Shown piece by piece: positions 48,001-51,000 of a DNA stretch of 64,000 nt (positions are counted from its first letter, which is position 1; each line of letters opens with the position of its first letter). The position numbers were made by a program. The DNA comes from Okamejei kenojei (taxonomy: Eukaryota): contig CM069148.1 in assembly GCA_035221665.1 (NCBI GenBank), forward strand, positions 49,910,001 to 49,974,000. Direction: 5' to 3'.

Positions 48001-51000
48001 TGGAGAAATACTGGAGGTGTCGTTTGTCTCAAAAAATGTTTTCATCTGTAGCTTCAGATAGTCACAACAACTTGCCTCAGCTAGTATTTGTGGATTAAAT
48101 CTCCAAAACGGTTGTTTATTATACATTTCTTCCAATTTTACTGAAAAGGTAAGACAGTGATCCGAAATAATAACGTTGTGATATTTTTGGTTTTAGGTAA
48201 AAGGGATAAGTTTGGCGTCAACCAAGAAATAGTCAATTTGTGTGTAAACTTTATAAACACCTGAATAAAAAGAGTATTCTCTTCCAGACGGATTGGCAAT
48301 CTCCATACCTCTTATGTTTGTGTTGTTTATGTGAGTGTTTAAAAGGTCACTCGATTTTGATGTACTTTTCCTTTGAAGTGAAGATTTATCCAAGTATTGA
48401 TCTAATACACAATTTAAATCAAATTGGGTCCCCCGCCCAAGGGGGCCCCGCGTTTATTTTCCGTATTTCATATGGTAATACAAATTCACTTTGTTAAATA
48501 AAGATTTTTAAAAAAACATTCGCCATACGGATTTTTTTACAAAACTTACATTGTTTTGTACATGGAATACAAGCGCTGTACAGTCATCAGACATAAACGA
48601 TGTGTTACCCACTGTAGCACGTGTTAACAGCCAGTAGTGTTAACAGCCAGATGTGTTAACAGCCAGTAGTTAACAAGTAGTTATCCAATGCGTCATCAAT
48701 GCATCCATCCACATTCCTCAGTAAATGTGTAATTGTGTTTTAGAAGAAGTATTAATGACGCTGCGTTCCTTTGAATACAATTCACGCAGCGTCATTAACA
48801 CTTCTTCAAAACATAATTACATTTTACTGAGGAATGTAGATTGATGCATTAATGACACATTGAGAATTTCTTAGAACACACCATCATGATTGAGAACTTC
48901 TTCTTGGTGAGATTCTTGGTCTGCAGGTTAGTCATTCAATTTACCTCAGGATCATTTCTATAGTCTACTTTACCTGGCAGGGGAGAAACAGTGATCAAAA
49001 ACTTCTCGGCCTTTTGGCTAAGATCAAGTGTAGTATCTGTTCTTTTTGTGAAAGAGACTATCTGTTCTTATCAGAACAGTTCTGGCGGTTCCTTGGGGAC
49101 AAGGGCCGTGGATTGTGGAGCGAAATCGTTGAGGAGTCGGTCGGCTGCAGGCTTAGAGGTGGATCCATGCTGGTTGGGAAACCAACCTAACACCTTATTC
49201 AGCGACAATGTCAGCAGGAGCAGGAGCAGGAGTGCAGGGTATTCGGAATACCCTGCGAATAAGCGTCAAGGACCTCAGCAAGGGGACCCCCTTCTCACGA
49301 GACCTTCGTGAAGAAGGTCTTGCTAGAGGCCTGCAAATTTGAGGCCAAGGACATCTATTGCCTCCCAGGATTTTTCCGGGTAACGGATATTTTGATGTTA
49401 CCTTCAAGTATCCAACGGGATGGCAGAAGGTGATGGAAGTCTTCCGGGAGAGGGGAAATGAAGCTCCGCTGTCGCTGCTGAAAGTGCAGCCGCTCTTCAC
49501 CCCCCCCACCCAAGAAGGAAAGGTTCATTACGGTGCACATGTTTAAACCCACATGTGCCCGTAGTGGATGTCCTCCACCTTCCTTGCTCGCTACGTGGAG
49601 GGAACAGGAGACTGTGTGGATGTGAAGGACATGCACGGGTTTGGACCAGCAAGCGGCAAGTCAAGGTAAAGCTGAGGGTGGACAAGGATGGGAGAAATCG
49701 TCCACCCCCCTCGGTTTTCGCGATTGGAGGAAACGAGGGTACTTGAGCTATGTAGGGCAACCCAGGCTGTGCAGGAAAAAACTGCAACAAGCCTGGGCAT
49801 GTGATGGCCCAATGCACTGCAGTTGTCTGCAAAAATGCAAGATTGGAGGGCCATGAGACAAAGGACCGTCAGGCGCACAGAACTGCAACCTGTGCGGGGA
49901 GGCAGGCCACCTTTACAATGGGCCATTGCCCTAAAAGAGCCTGCACCTACGCACAGGCAACAAGAGAGGCTGCTGCCAGCACCCCAAAGGGGGTGAGGCA
50001 CCCCCCACCACTGCCAAGACCCCAGCTCAGAAAGAGGGAACAACGGACGAGGACAGCCCGACCACCTTGAGGCCCCAAGTGCCAGAAGAGACGCCCAGCA
50101 TCCTGCCCAGGAGGGAGAGTCGATGGAGGAGGGGGAACAGCAGGAGAAATGGACAATGGTGAAGTATAAGAAGAGGGTTTAGCCCAAAGAGCCAAGGCCC
50201 AGAAAAGAGTGGTAAGTCCAAAAGAAAATCACAAAAAAAGGTGTCCTTTCTCTTACAGAAGGCAGCAACCTCTCCTCCTCGTCGGAGGATGAGGCGACCG
50301 GAAGTCCCTACGAGGGAGGCAGAGGAAGAAAACGGGAGGAAAAGGAGACCGAGAGCAGAGAAGTGTCCGAGAGGCTCCAGCCCCAGGACATCGGGAGCAG
50401 CGAAGTGGTTGAGGGGCTCCAGCCCCCGGAAACAGGAATCATCACAACGCAATGACCCCAGCTCCAGGGGACTGGGAGCAGTGTAACGGCCGATGGGCCC
50501 AAAGCTTCCGGGCGACCGGGAGCATTGCAGTGGCCGATGGGCCCCAGCTCCGGGAGACCGGGAAGCATTGCAAGCGGCCCATGGGCCCCAGCTCCGGGCG
50601 ACCGGGAGCATTGCAGAGGCATTGGGCCCTCAGCTCGGGCGACCGGAGCAAGCGCAGAGGCTATTGGGCCCCACTACAGAAGACAAAGGAATAGCGGCAT
50701 GCCCAAAAGGGGGTGGAACGAGAAGCCCCCCCGCAACGACAACTTTTGGTTACGCCACCTGATACTCACTCTCACCGCTGGATTCCCTGAGCCCAGGAAA
50801 TCTGAGGCAATTTCACCGAAGCGGTGGGATGATGGGACATGGAAATGGTCAGTGAACTCTAAGACAATGGAGCTCAAACTGGCATCTTTAAACGTGCGCA
50901 GTACAAAGAGCACTGCGCGATGTGTTAATGCCTTACAGTAACCTGGCAAGGTCAAGGCAGATATGACTTTTCTTCAGGAGTGCGGGCTGCCACACCTCAC

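What the first reader, a model, noticed from the sequence alone, without database searches (positions are those of the whole stretch)
48930..49080. Tx1/Keno-like LINE carrying a chimeric U1+U2 snRNA leader inside its target-site duplication
Seen: a 16-17-bp TSD (48930-48946 / 54540-54556) brackets the whole unit: about 19 nt of unknown sequence, U1 nt about 2-32 (with the 5'-splice-site-pairing end), AAAA, U2 nt 5-47 (with the branch-point-pairing GTAGTA), a 14-nt spacer, U2 nt 37-52 again, then the LINE and poly(A). No U1 or U2 remainder follows the poly(A), so the snRNA pieces travelled with the element. Known: Keno-type Tx1 elements insert site-specifically into U2 genes, and snRNA-LINE chimeras can form by template switching or read-through. 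Inference: a layered history in which a U2-targeting element kept its U2 head, later sat in or switched onto U1, was transcribed from an snRNA promoter, and integrated here off-target. The TSD ends in TTTACCT, the same word that opens the U1 piece, hinting at homology-guided 5' joining. A stable U1-U2-headed autonomous LINE family would be unusual.
Basis: partly seen in the sequence, partly recalled or inferred. Interest (0 to 1): 0.75.

Follow-up and report, generated by a model that had tools for sequence, protein, structure and literature searches.

The report
Dead Tx1 LINE with snRNA-fragment leader
A decayed jumping gene of the Tx1 type carries, inside its insertion scar, a short leader stitched from the front ends of the splicing RNAs U1 and U2; the kind is already described in crocodilians, but this copy shows where the U2 part probably came from.

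Summary
An exact 17-nt target-site duplication (48930-48946 = 54540-54556; 0.03 expected by chance) brackets a 5.6-kb Tx1-type LINE (48947-54539). Its first 128 nt are U1 nt ~2-33, an A run, U2 nt 5-47 (43/43), a 14-nt spacer and U2 nt 37-52 (16/16).

The copy is not autonomous. ORF2 has 13-26 frame changes and 1-6 stops, and ORF1 is broken too.

Natural U2-gene insertions of related LINEs, fetched here, put the poly(A) against U2 nt 36-39 and the 5' junction at nt 27-48. The head's U2 boundaries (47, 37, 52) fit that site. I therefore read the U2 part as the carried 5' flank of a source copy that sat in a U2 gene. The U1 piece was most likely added by a template jump.

Tx1 families with U1 or U2 heads, and SINEs with stacked U1/U2 heads, are already published (Kojima 2015, PMC4494074). 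This is a new member of a known kind. Whether other copies share the head could not be tested.

The parts
48930..48946 (+). Left copy of the target-site duplication (17 nt; 16 if the first A is counted with the tail)
   Evidence: Exact repeat of 54540-54556. It has 2 matches in the window against 0.03 expected; read directly.
48947..48964 (+). First 18 nt of the insert. They weakly resemble U3 snoRNA nt ~13-31 (the box A region). This is not significant on its own.
   Evidence: Rfam U3 model positions 13-29, E 3.6, and positions 4-38, E 3.4; 16 of 17 aligned positions match with one gap.
48965..48996 (+). U1 snRNA 5' fragment, nt ~2-30, with one extra T inside the 5'-splice-site-pairing word
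   Evidence: Rfam U1 model positions 1-35 at 48965-49000, E 0.0073. Identity to a real U1 gene, L002:3018-3181, is 26 of 36 columns.
48997..49001 (+). Run of five A at the U1/U2 joint. It can be read as the end of the U1 piece, as U2 nt 1-4 with mismatches, or as untemplated bases.
   Evidence: Both Rfam alignments claim part of the run: U1 up to 49000 and U2 from 48998.
49002..49044 (+). U2 snRNA nt 5-47 (stem I and the branch-point-pairing region)
   Evidence: 43/43 identical to U2 gene L002:2610-2801. Rfam U2 63.9 bits, gathering score 46.
49045..49058 (+). 14-nt spacer of unknown origin. It sits where a Keno-type insertion would sit and is flanked by the 11-nt direct repeat equal to U2 nt 37-47.
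   Evidence: It has no other copy in the element. Matches elsewhere in the window with up to 3 mismatches are at chance level: 14 against a mean of 6.6 and a maximum of 17 for shuffled spacers. The direct repeat is D5.
49059..49074 (+). Second U2 fragment, nt 37-52
   Evidence: 16/16 identical to U2 gene L002:2610-2801.
49075..49207 (+). LINE-specific leader (133 nt) between the snRNA head and the first ATG of ORF1
   Evidence: No RNA family reaches its gathering score here. The ATG-started ORF begins at 49208.
49208..50830 (+). ORF1 region, broken (stops and frame changes). It encodes a ZCCHC3-type RNA-binding domain and a zinc knuckle. Bounds are approximate.
   Evidence: tblastn of fish Tx1-type proteins P0079, P0090 and P0091 (residues ~106-265) covers 49521-50001 with best E 4.6e-11 and 2-4 stops in the HSPs. 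P0091 carries RBD_ZCCHC3_2nd at residues 110-182 and zf-CCHC at 225-240.
50837..54274 (+). ORF2, broken: APE-type endonuclease, reverse transcriptase and C-terminal zf-RVT region. It has 13-26 frame changes and 1-6 stop codons on the best frameshift-aware path.
   Evidence: All 12 relatives tried by tblastn align, with outer bounds 50864-54274. DP counts are, where an intact control LINE gave 0/0. RVT_1 scores E 1.7e-25 on the longest open stretch.
54275..54530 (+). 3' untranslated region with AATAAA at 54508-54513
   Evidence: Read directly. It lies beyond the last protein similarity.
54531..54539 (+). Poly(A) tail, nine A
   Evidence: Read directly.
54540..54556 (+). Right copy of the target-site duplication

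Best explanation
This is one retrotransposed copy of a Tx1-clade LINE, inserted off-target by target-primed reverse transcription (17-nt TSD, AATAAA, A9 tail). Its RNA template already began with snRNA sequence.

The U2 part of the head is U2 nt 5-47, a 14-nt spacer, then U2 nt 37-52. I read it as the 5' flank of a source copy that resided in a U2 gene at the Keno site. The spacer, flanked by the repeat of U2 nt 37-47, looks like the scar of an earlier abortive or deleted insertion at that site. The LINE body joins at U2 nt 52, as expected for a 5' junction with a ~15-nt duplication of U2 nt 38-52.

Transcription from the U2 gene's external promoter would start at U2 nt 1 and carry this flank on the RNA (5' transduction). 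At a U2 target the flank would merge with the target. At a foreign site it ends up inside the TSD, as seen here.

The U1 nt ~2-33 piece, and perhaps a U3-like 18 nt, lie upstream of U2 nt 5. They were most likely added when the reverse transcriptase reached the RNA's 5' end and jumped onto other abundant nuclear small RNAs. The A run marks that joint.

The body was probably already dead and was moved in trans by an active relative.

Shown: the anatomy, the coordinates of the pieces, the state of the ORFs, and the junction coordinates of natural U2-gene insertions. Inferred: the source locus, the promoter used, the order of events, and the template jumps.
For: - TSD, tail and head coordinates.
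- Natural U2-gene insertions of related LINEs. L013 has a 5' flank of U2 nt 1-47/48, then poly(A), then U2 from nt 38/39. In L004 the tail abuts nt 38/39. In L010 the tail plus GG abuts nt 38, with 5' junctions at nt 33 and 41. In L016 the tail abuts nt 36. Print agrees: U2 sequence downstream of Utopia starts at nt 39, and Keno shares that 3' flank (PMC4640811, section 6).
- All three U2 boundaries of the head (47, 37, 52) fall at or within 14 nt of that site.
- The 11-nt repeat around the spacer equals the duplication made by the L013 insertion.
- Target fragments separating stacked insertions occur naturally in the U1/U2 arrays (L010, L008).
- Dead on arrival: ORF2 has 13-26 frame changes and 1-6 stops while the control has 0/0. 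The frame changes are not concentrated at homopolymers: 3 of 18, with 19% of positions so flagged. Yet the 93 nt of TSD (2 x 17) plus U2 pieces (43 + 16) show 0 changes.
- Template jumps that add U1 or U2 pieces to 5' ends of Tx1-mobilised elements are the published explanation for SINEU and Tx1-Mar heads (PMC4494074, Results and Discussion).
Against: - No source locus and no second copy were seen, so family-level or one-off status is unknown.
- The spacer has no poly(A) and no identifiable origin, so calling it a scar is only a reading.
- The U2 piece starts at nt 5, not nt 1.
- The RT tree does not tie this element to the U2-targeting lineages. Support is 99/100 with amphibian and unnamed sequences, deeper nodes are below 40, and the U2-targeting loci are not monophyletic.
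- The boundary coincidence was noticed after the fact.
- The U1 piece is imperfect: an extra T in an otherwise invariant word and 26/36 identity to a distant U1. That sits awkwardly with a fresh addition.
- The age argument assumes similar mutation rates in the GC-rich body (56% GC) and the AT-rich flanks.
Confidence: 0.5

Rival explanations
1. The whole head was made by serial template switching. The reverse transcriptase, on reaching the 5' end of the LINE RNA, jumped onto mature U2 snRNA (twice, with a short filler), then U1, then possibly U3. This happened either in this one insertion event or stepwise over several generations of a headed lineage. It is the route proposed for SINEU and Tx1-Mar heads and for L1-snRNA chimeras.
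For: - Published precedent: recurrent 5' additions of U1/U2 pieces, and partial duplications inside them, in SINEU-1; U1 heads on Tx1-2_Crp, Tx1-2B_Crp and Tx1-4_AMi; a U2 head on Tx1-11_Crp (PMC4494074, Results).
- L1 chimeras with U1-U6 and U3 are known, and the U3 parts are mostly truncated (bioRxiv 10.1101/2025.02.02.635956, passages).
- Double jumps giving tripartite chimeras within one TSD are reported (PMC2104539, abstract).
- All pieces are in sense orientation and are 5' parts that run to within 1-5 nt of the RNA's first base.
- The U2 pieces are pristine, 59/59, as expected for freshly copied snRNA.
- An A run lies at the U1/U2 joint.
Against: - It gives no reason why the U2 boundaries fall at 47, 37 and 52, at the known insertion site.
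- It does not explain why copying of the second U2 piece should stop at nt 37.
- The snRNA parts do not reach their 3' ends.
- The LINE part is near full length, unlike the classic L1 chimeras.
Confidence: 0.3
2. The element lived in a U2 gene and its U2-headed RNA then inserted into a U1 gene, and possibly later a U3 gene. Each time it was transcribed from that gene's snRNA promoter, so each piece is a carried 5' flank.
For: - Each piece begins within 1-5 nt of its RNA's first base, as read-through from an snRNA start site predicts.
- Tx1-type LINEs that insert specifically into U1 genes do exist (L002, L003, L006-L009).
- U1 and U2 genes can share one tandem unit in the CBDAUV01 contigs.
Against: - In the U1-specific relatives the 5' junction is at U1 nt 15-18 and the tail abuts nt 3/4. 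A junction at nt ~33 would need a ~30-nt duplication.
- The U3-like piece starts at about nt 13, not nt 1, and is not significant.
- Three successive hits in three snRNA gene families are less economical than jumps.
Confidence: 0.12
3. The arrangement is an assembly artefact, such as a chimeric read or collapse, or the frame changes are sequencing errors and the copy is really intact and young.
For: - ORF2 has many frame changes against few stops.
- The window has two N runs elsewhere.
- No reads were available to check.
Against: - The exact TSD placed directly after an A tail with an AATAAA signal 17 nt upstream is the signature of a real insertion.
- The frame changes are not enriched near homopolymer runs: 3 of 18 with 19% of positions flagged, and 0 of 18 near runs of 5 or more.
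- ORF1 is broken as well.
Confidence: 0.04

Closest known systems
Tx1-Mar families of crocodilians with snRNA-derived heads (Tx1-2_Crp, Tx1-2B_Crp, Tx1-4_AMi with a U1 head; Tx1-11_Crp with a U2 head), Kojima 2015, PMC4494074
   Same: A Tx1-clade LINE whose 5' end is a fragment of U1 or U2 snRNA, with a poly(A) tail and a TSD.
   Different: - Here the head is composite: U1 plus two U2 pieces, and perhaps U3.
- The host is not a crocodilian. The nearest RT relatives are amphibian or unnamed.
- The insertion is not in a recognisable repeat within the window.
- I saw one decayed copy, not a family consensus.
- I could not see that paper's Fig. 1B or its supplements, which give the exact snRNA coordinates of those heads.
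SINEU-1 and SINEU-2 (SINEs with stacked U1/U2 heads), PMC4494074
   Same: - Sequential U1 and U2 pieces at the 5' end.
- Partial duplication inside the snRNA-derived part.
- SINEU-2 also has U1 upstream of U2.
   Different: Those are short non-coding elements under 500 bp. This one is a 5.6-kb LINE with both ORFs, now broken.
Keno (Tx1-clade LINEs specific for U2 genes) and the unrelated Utopia, PMC4640811; Kojima and Fujiwara 2004 was not seen and is cited through these papers
   Same: The head's U2 boundaries (47, 37, 52) match the Keno site. In natural insertions the tail abuts U2 nt 36-39 and the 5' junction lies at nt 27-48.
   Different: - This copy is not in a U2 gene, and no U2 follows its tail.
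- Descent from Keno is unresolved.
L1-snRNA chimeric retrocopies made by template switching (U6, U3, U1, U2, U5, 5S joined to L1), as summarised in bioRxiv 10.1101/2025.02.02.635956 and PMC4494074; tripartite chimeras in PMC2104539
   Same: Small nuclear RNA in sense orientation 5' of a LINE, all inside one TSD. More than one jump is possible.
   Different: - In those chimeras the LINE part is usually a short 3' fragment and U6 is full length.
- Here the LINE is near full length and every snRNA part is a short 5' fragment.
5' transduction and co-transcription with the target (L1 and SVA 5' transductions; R2 with 28S rRNA), as discussed in PMC4494074
   Same: Upstream flank of a source copy carried on the RNA and deposited at the new site.
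   Different: The promoter proposed here is an snRNA-type external promoter. No transcript evidence is available.

Membership tests
Tx1 clade of non-LTR retrotransposons | ORF2 with an N-terminal APE-type endonuclease, an RT and a C-terminal zinc-binding (zf-RVT) region | tested here: met
   RVT_1 scores E 1.7e-25 and 9.7e-07 on two open stretches. Relatives align from their residue 1-18 to ~1096-1134 over 50864-54274. Those relatives carry Exo_endo_phos, RVT_1 and zf-RVT in that order. Pfam itself found no endonuclease domain in the short open pieces.
Tx1 clade of non-LTR retrotransposons | ORF1 with RNA-binding domains and a CCHC knuckle | tested here: met
   Window 49521-50001 aligns to the RBD_ZCCHC3_2nd and zf-CCHC part of P0079, P0090 and P0091. 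The ORF is broken.
Tx1 clade of non-LTR retrotransposons | RT groups with Tx1-clade references in a phylogeny | tested here: inconclusive
   Hits include proteins that their sources name 'Transposon TX1 uncharacterized 149 kDa protein' (P0059, P0088). The NJ tree joins the window 99/100 to Ranitomeya, Pleurodeles and unnamed sequences. No curated clade references or outgroup clades were available.
Keno (U2-gene-specific Tx1 lineage) | Inserted in a U2 gene, with U2 resuming at about nt 38/39 after the tail | tested here: not met
   No U2 is present in 54530-55100. There is no second U2 hit in the window.
Keno (U2-gene-specific Tx1 lineage) | 5' flank is the U2 5' part, ending a few to ~10 nt past the nick site | tested here: inconclusive
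   The head reproduces that flank (U2 to nt 47 and to nt 52) but lies inside the TSD at a foreign site.
Keno (U2-gene-specific Tx1 lineage) | RT clusters with Keno | tested here: inconclusive
   The U2-targeting loci L004, L010, L013 and L016 are not monophyletic and are not near the window sequence. Deep nodes have support below 40/100. No named vertebrate Keno was available.
Tx1 families with snRNA-derived heads (Tx1-Mar type) | U1- or U2-derived sequence at the 5' end of the LINE | tested here: met
Tx1 families with snRNA-derived heads (Tx1-Mar type) | The head is part of the family consensus, shared by independent copies | not testable with these tools
   No eukaryotic genome collection was on hand. 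There is no second copy in the window. The 26-nt junction word gave 0 hits in genome contigs. The head-spanning ORF gave 0 protein hits.
Tx1 families with snRNA-derived heads (Tx1-Mar type) | Preference for a Mariner-type DNA transposon as target | not tested
   The flanks next to the TSD match nothing else in the window. No transposon library was available.
LINE-snRNA chimeric retrocopies by template switching | snRNA in sense orientation 5' of LINE sequence within a single TSD | tested here: met
LINE-snRNA chimeric retrocopies by template switching | The LINE part is a 5'-truncated 3' fragment, and the snRNA part is full length or reaches its 3' end | tested here: not met
   The LINE part includes the ORF1 start and all of ORF2. 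The snRNA parts end at U1 nt ~33 and at U2 nt 47 and 52.
SINEU | Short non-coding retroposon (under ~500 bp) with a U1/U2 head | tested here: not met
   The element is 5,593 bp and has two ORF regions.

The most novel reading that the evidence does not exclude
The head may not be a one-off. It could be the stable leader of a living Tx1 lineage that moves among snRNA gene families (U2, U1, perhaps U3), borrows their strong external promoters, and records each stay as a short 5' fragment. The heads of Tx1-Mar and SINEU elements would then also be fossil target flanks rather than products of template switching. That would settle the open question, raised in PMC4494074, of how such promoter-less elements are transcribed.
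Probability: 0.15. Interest if true: 0.65.

Novelty: new member of a known kind. Interest (0 to 1): 0.4.

Why it matters
Tx1 LINEs and SINEU elements with snRNA heads are known, but how the heads arise and how these elements are transcribed was left open (PMC4494074, Discussion). In this copy the U2 boundaries coincide with the Keno insertion site. That points to carry-over of the target gene's 5' part from a U2-resident source, rather than only to template switching, and it makes the question testable by tabulating copies in the source genome. The copy itself is a dead, ordinary repeat with no sign of host function.

Tried and rejected
- **Other copies of the element or head in the window.** blastn found none; the only self-match is a short tandem duplication inside the ORF1 region.
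- **26-nt U1/U2 junction word in genome contigs.** 0 hits. The collection is prokaryotic, so this says little.
- **Protein search with the 106-codon ORF that reads through the head.** 33 candidates, none at E <= 0.01. This is weak evidence only.
- **Pfam on ten open pieces.** Only the two RT pieces scored; there was no endonuclease or ORF1 domain. Both were placed by tblastn instead.
- **RT tree to test Keno descent.** Uninformative above the amphibian/unnamed group. A first attempt timed out.
- **Sequencing-error explanation for the frame changes.** Rejected, because they are not enriched at homopolymers.
- **CGA-to-TGA decay as the main source of stops.** Rejected, because the stops are of all three kinds and lie opposite many different residues.
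- **Origin of the 14-nt spacer.** No source in the element, and matches elsewhere are at chance level.
- **Inverted repeat 48960-48973 / 49048-49061 (79% complementary).** By my arithmetic this is about what chance gives in a 130-nt stretch, so I dropped it.
- **Target site inside a repeat.** The 84 nt before the TSD and the 30 nt after it match nothing else in the window.
- **Not checked.** Paper supplements were closed, including the supplements of PMC4494074; its Fig. 1B, which holds the head alignments, is not held either.
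Full report
**1. The observation**

- The 17-mer AGTCATTCAATTTACCT occurs at 48930-48946 and 54540-54556 and nowhere else in the window. 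Even allowing two mismatches, shuffles give a mean of 0.03 matches, and 0 of 100 give two.
- The right copy follows nine A (54531-54539). AATAAA lies 17 nt upstream of that run.
- The insert therefore spans 48947-54539, which is 5,593 bp.

Rfam finds one family above its gathering score in the whole window: U2, 63.9 bits against 46, at 48998-49094.
- Gene nt 5-47 equal 49002-49044, 43 of 43.
- Gene nt 37-52 equal 49059-49074, 16 of 16.
- The 14 nt between the two pieces (49045-49058) match nothing. They are flanked by an exact 11-nt direct repeat, TATCTGTTCTT, which is U2 nt 37-47.

Upstream, Rfam aligns U1 model positions 1-35 to 48965-49000. E is 0.0073 in a 76-nt search and 1.9 when the alignment is forced to be global in a 401-nt search.
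- Against a real U1 gene from a distant organism, 26 of 36 columns agree.
- The piece has one extra T inside the 5'-splice-site-pairing word.
- Five A (48997-49001) lie at the joint, and both alignments claim them.

Their only Rfam match is the box A region of U3 snoRNA: model positions 13-29, 16 of 17 with one gap, E 3.6, or positions 4-38, E 3.4.
- That is not significant across 4,227 families.
- Restricted after the fact to the dozen or so small RNAs known to join LINEs, it would correspond to E of about 0.01 (my arithmetic). I treat it as a lead only.

Neither flank holds a U1 or U2 remainder.

**2. The LINE**

ORF2:
- The longest open stretch in the RT region (352 codons) scores RVT_1 at E 1.7e-25.
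- It finds 2,817 proteins at E <= 1e-10 among 8,000 scored candidates. The best identities are 49-53%, to unnamed sequences and to proteins of Ranitomeya and Pleurodeles. Identity to fish proteins is 41-43%, including a Takifugu reverse transcriptase. Two hits are named by their sources 'Transposon TX1 uncharacterized 149 kDa protein'.
- All twelve full-length relatives tried by tblastn align across 50864-54274, from about their first residues to residues ~1096-1134.
- Those relatives carry Exo_endo_phos, RVT_1 and zf-RVT in that order.

ORF1:
- Window 49521-50001 aligns to the second ZCCHC3-type RNA-binding domain and the zinc knuckle of fish Tx1-type proteins.
- The first ATG-started ORF begins at 49208. 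That leaves a 133-nt LINE-specific leader after the head.

The copy is badly decayed.
- A frameshift-aware alignment of my own, reporting only counts and bounds, gives 13-26 frame changes and 1-6 stop codons in ORF2. This range covers ten runs: two comparators, each at five penalty settings.
- The same procedure on an intact relative (the L007 LINE) gives 0 and 0.
- Plain tblastn HSPs hold 7-22 stops and 0-6 frame changes between HSPs.
- ORF1 shows 2-4 stops in the 100-150 codons that align.
- The frame changes are not sequencing-type errors. Three of 18 lie within 6 nt of a homopolymer run of 4 or more, where 19% of positions do, and 0 of 18 lie near runs of 5 or more.
- The stops are of all three kinds and lie opposite many different residues, so CpG decay of arginine codons does not explain them.

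So this copy is not autonomous.

**3. Age argument (inference)**

Seventeen or so frame-shifting indels in 3.4 kb imply several per cent of sequence change. Yet the two TSD copies (34 nt) and the two U2 pieces (59 nt) show no change at all. At 4-7% divergence the chance of 93 unchanged bases is roughly 0.02 to 0.001 (my arithmetic).

The simplest reading is that the body was already broken when it was copied. A dead RNA was moved in trans. The U2 pieces either were fresh or came from a place where U2 sequence is kept uniform.

Caveats:
- The body is GC-rich (56% against 36-40% in the flanks), so rates may differ.
- The U1 piece is not pristine.

**4. Related loci**

No eukaryotic genome collection was available. 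A scan of genome contigs with an alignment of the RT piece and 21 relatives (A1) returned 77 loci. They are LINE-bearing contigs filed under MAG names. I examined 23 of the 77 with Rfam and 29 of the 77 by tblastn.

These loci turned out to be natural examples of Tx1-type LINEs sitting in snRNA gene arrays.
- Contigs CBDAUV01... hold 2,081-bp tandem units of U2, U1 and 5S genes. Contig CBDAPN010000007.1 holds a 436-bp U5 array.
- U2-gene insertions:
  - L013 has U2 nt 1-47/48, then the LINE, then poly(A), then U2 from nt 38/39.
  - L004 has poly(A), then U2 from nt 38/39.
  - L010 has poly(A) plus GG, then U2 from nt 38, with 5' junctions at nt 33 and nt 41.
  - L016 has poly(A), then U2 from nt 36.
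- This agrees with print. U2 downstream of Utopia starts at nt 39, and Keno shares that flank (PMC4640811, section 6, read).
- A second lineage (L002, L003, L006-L009) sits in U1 genes. Its 5' junction is at U1 nt 15-18, and a short A tail abuts nt 3/4.
- Stacked insertions separated only by the duplicated target fragment also occur (L008, L010).

**5. What the head is**

The three U2 boundaries of the head (47, 37, 52) coincide with the Keno site.
- U2(..47), spacer, U2(37..) is what a U2 gene looks like after a small insertion at that site. The duplication is the same nt 37/38-47 that L013 shows.
- A LINE body joined at nt 52 is what a second, full-length insertion into the downstream half would give, with a ~15-nt duplication.
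- Transcription from the U2 promoter would then yield an RNA with exactly this leader. Insertion at a foreign site would place the leader inside the TSD.

Template switching onto mature U2 gives no reason for these boundaries. I therefore favour 5' transduction from a U2-resident source for the U2 part (about 0.5-0.6).

The U1 piece cannot have the same origin, because it lies upstream of U2 nt 5. Two routes remain.
- It was added by a template jump. The A run is a plausible landing site, since the U1 alignment itself ends in A-rich positions.
The U1-specific relatives have junctions at nt 15-18, not ~33, so I find this less likely.

The recurrence of TTTACCT at the end of the TSD and in the U1 piece has a chance of about 0.003 (my arithmetic). 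It may reflect pairing between the cDNA end and the target. But the word lies 22 nt inside the insert, not at the joint, so its role is unclear.

**6. Comparison with print**

Kojima 2015 (PMC4494074; I read the abstract, Results and Discussion, but not the figures or supplements) reports the following.
- Crocodilian Tx1-Mar families cluster with Keno.
- SINEU-1 shows at least two 5' additions of U1 and three of U2, plus partial duplications.
- SINEU-2 is U1 followed by U2.
- The author attributes the additions to template switching and leaves the mode of transcription open.

L1 chimeras with U1-U6 and U3 are summarised in bioRxiv 10.1101/2025.02.02.635956 (passages read). Double jumps are described in PMC2104539 (abstract read).

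The present element is therefore a new member of a known kind. What it adds is a composite head on a LINE rather than a SINE, in a non-crocodilian host, with boundaries that point to the target gene as the source of the U2 part.

My literature searches found no report of a composite U1+U2 head on a LINE, and none of a U1-gene-specific non-LTR element. PMC4640811 (2015) lists only Dada-U1 for U1. These searches cover only the held library.

**7. The RT tree**

I built a neighbour-joining tree of 52 RT segments over 314 columns with 100 bootstraps. Four of 29 loci had been dropped for short HSPs and one for stops. All 27 chosen proteins passed the 250-residue cut.
- The window sequence joins Ranitomeya, Pleurodeles and four unnamed proteins with support 99.
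- All deeper nodes on its path have support 13-36.
- The four U2-targeting loci are not monophyletic.

Keno descent is therefore unresolved.

**8. What stayed unchecked**

- Whether other copies share the head.
- The source locus, the empty site in relatives, transcripts and raw reads.
- Loci L061 and L062 may be human LINE sequence, judging by their record names and 27% identity. I left them unread.

**9. Verdict**

The feature is real and was accurately observed. It is a dead Tx1-type LINE copy with a U1+U2 (possibly also U3) fragment leader. The kind is already described, and the origin of the U2 part is probably a U2-gene flank. Interest is moderate at 0.4.

Noticed in passing
L002, L003, L006, L007, L008, L009 (contigs CBDAUV010000004.1...045.1...056.1...070.1); e.g. 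L007:5134-10700: A Tx1-type LINE lineage sits specifically in U1 snRNA genes. U1 nt 1-15/18 lie upstream, and a short A tail is followed by U1 from nt 3/4, so nt ~3-15/18 are duplicated. The genes form 2,081-bp U2-U1-5S tandem units, and the contigs are filed under a bacterial MAG name. PMC4640811 (2015) lists only the DNA transposon Dada-U1 for U1, and my search found no U1-specific non-LTR element in the held library.
   Followed up: partly
L021-L023, L038, L073, L074 (contig CBDAPN010000007.1): LINEs with 32% and 41% RT identity to the window element are embedded in a long 436-bp tandem array of U5 snRNA genes. The contig is filed under an Endozoicomonas MAG name. U5 is a listed Tx1 target (legend of Fig. 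3 in PMC4494074). I did not read the junctions.
   Followed up: no
L001-L077: At least 77 contigs filed as bacterial or archaeal genome bins encode eukaryote-type APE/RT LINEs. Several also carry eukaryotic snRNA, 5S or tRNA gene arrays. They look like host DNA binned with the microbes.
   Followed up: partly
L035:3000-11500: A relative with 44% RT identity over a short HSP lies among six tRNA genes on both strands. It may be a tRNA-cluster-associated lineage.
   Followed up: no
window 48686-48862: A 177-bp near-perfect palindrome lies 68 nt upstream of the TSD. Its outer arms are 40 nt at 90% complementarity, its inner arms 28 nt at 93%, and its self-match is 84% over 179 nt. It looks like a MITE or foldback element.
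   Followed up: no
window 49208-50830 (ORF1 region): A short tandem duplication of roughly 86 bp lies inside the ORF1 region. Its two copies are 83% alike, which is much more diverged than the TSD copies.
   Followed up: no
window 20-3272 (+), 9862-12518 (-), 47541-48011 (-), 57597-59830 (+): Four other stretches show 25-42% protein similarity to Tx1-type ORF2 proteins. They are unrelated to the element at the DNA level and carry no snRNA-like head that reaches an Rfam gathering score.
   Followed up: partly
window 54573-54668: A (CT)n-rich microsatellite begins about 20 nt after the right TSD. (TC)n is the known target of the Tx1-clade Kibi family (PMC4494074, Introduction), but the 5' flank here is not TC-rich.
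   Followed up: no
window 54697-54824 and about a dozen other places (e.g. 4704-4889, 16047-16134, 17499-17552): A short interspersed repeat of about 90 bp, 74-88% alike between copies, lies just right of the insertion.
   Followed up: no
window 25449-25602 and 29045-29721: Two runs of N. I left them as they are.
   Followed up: no
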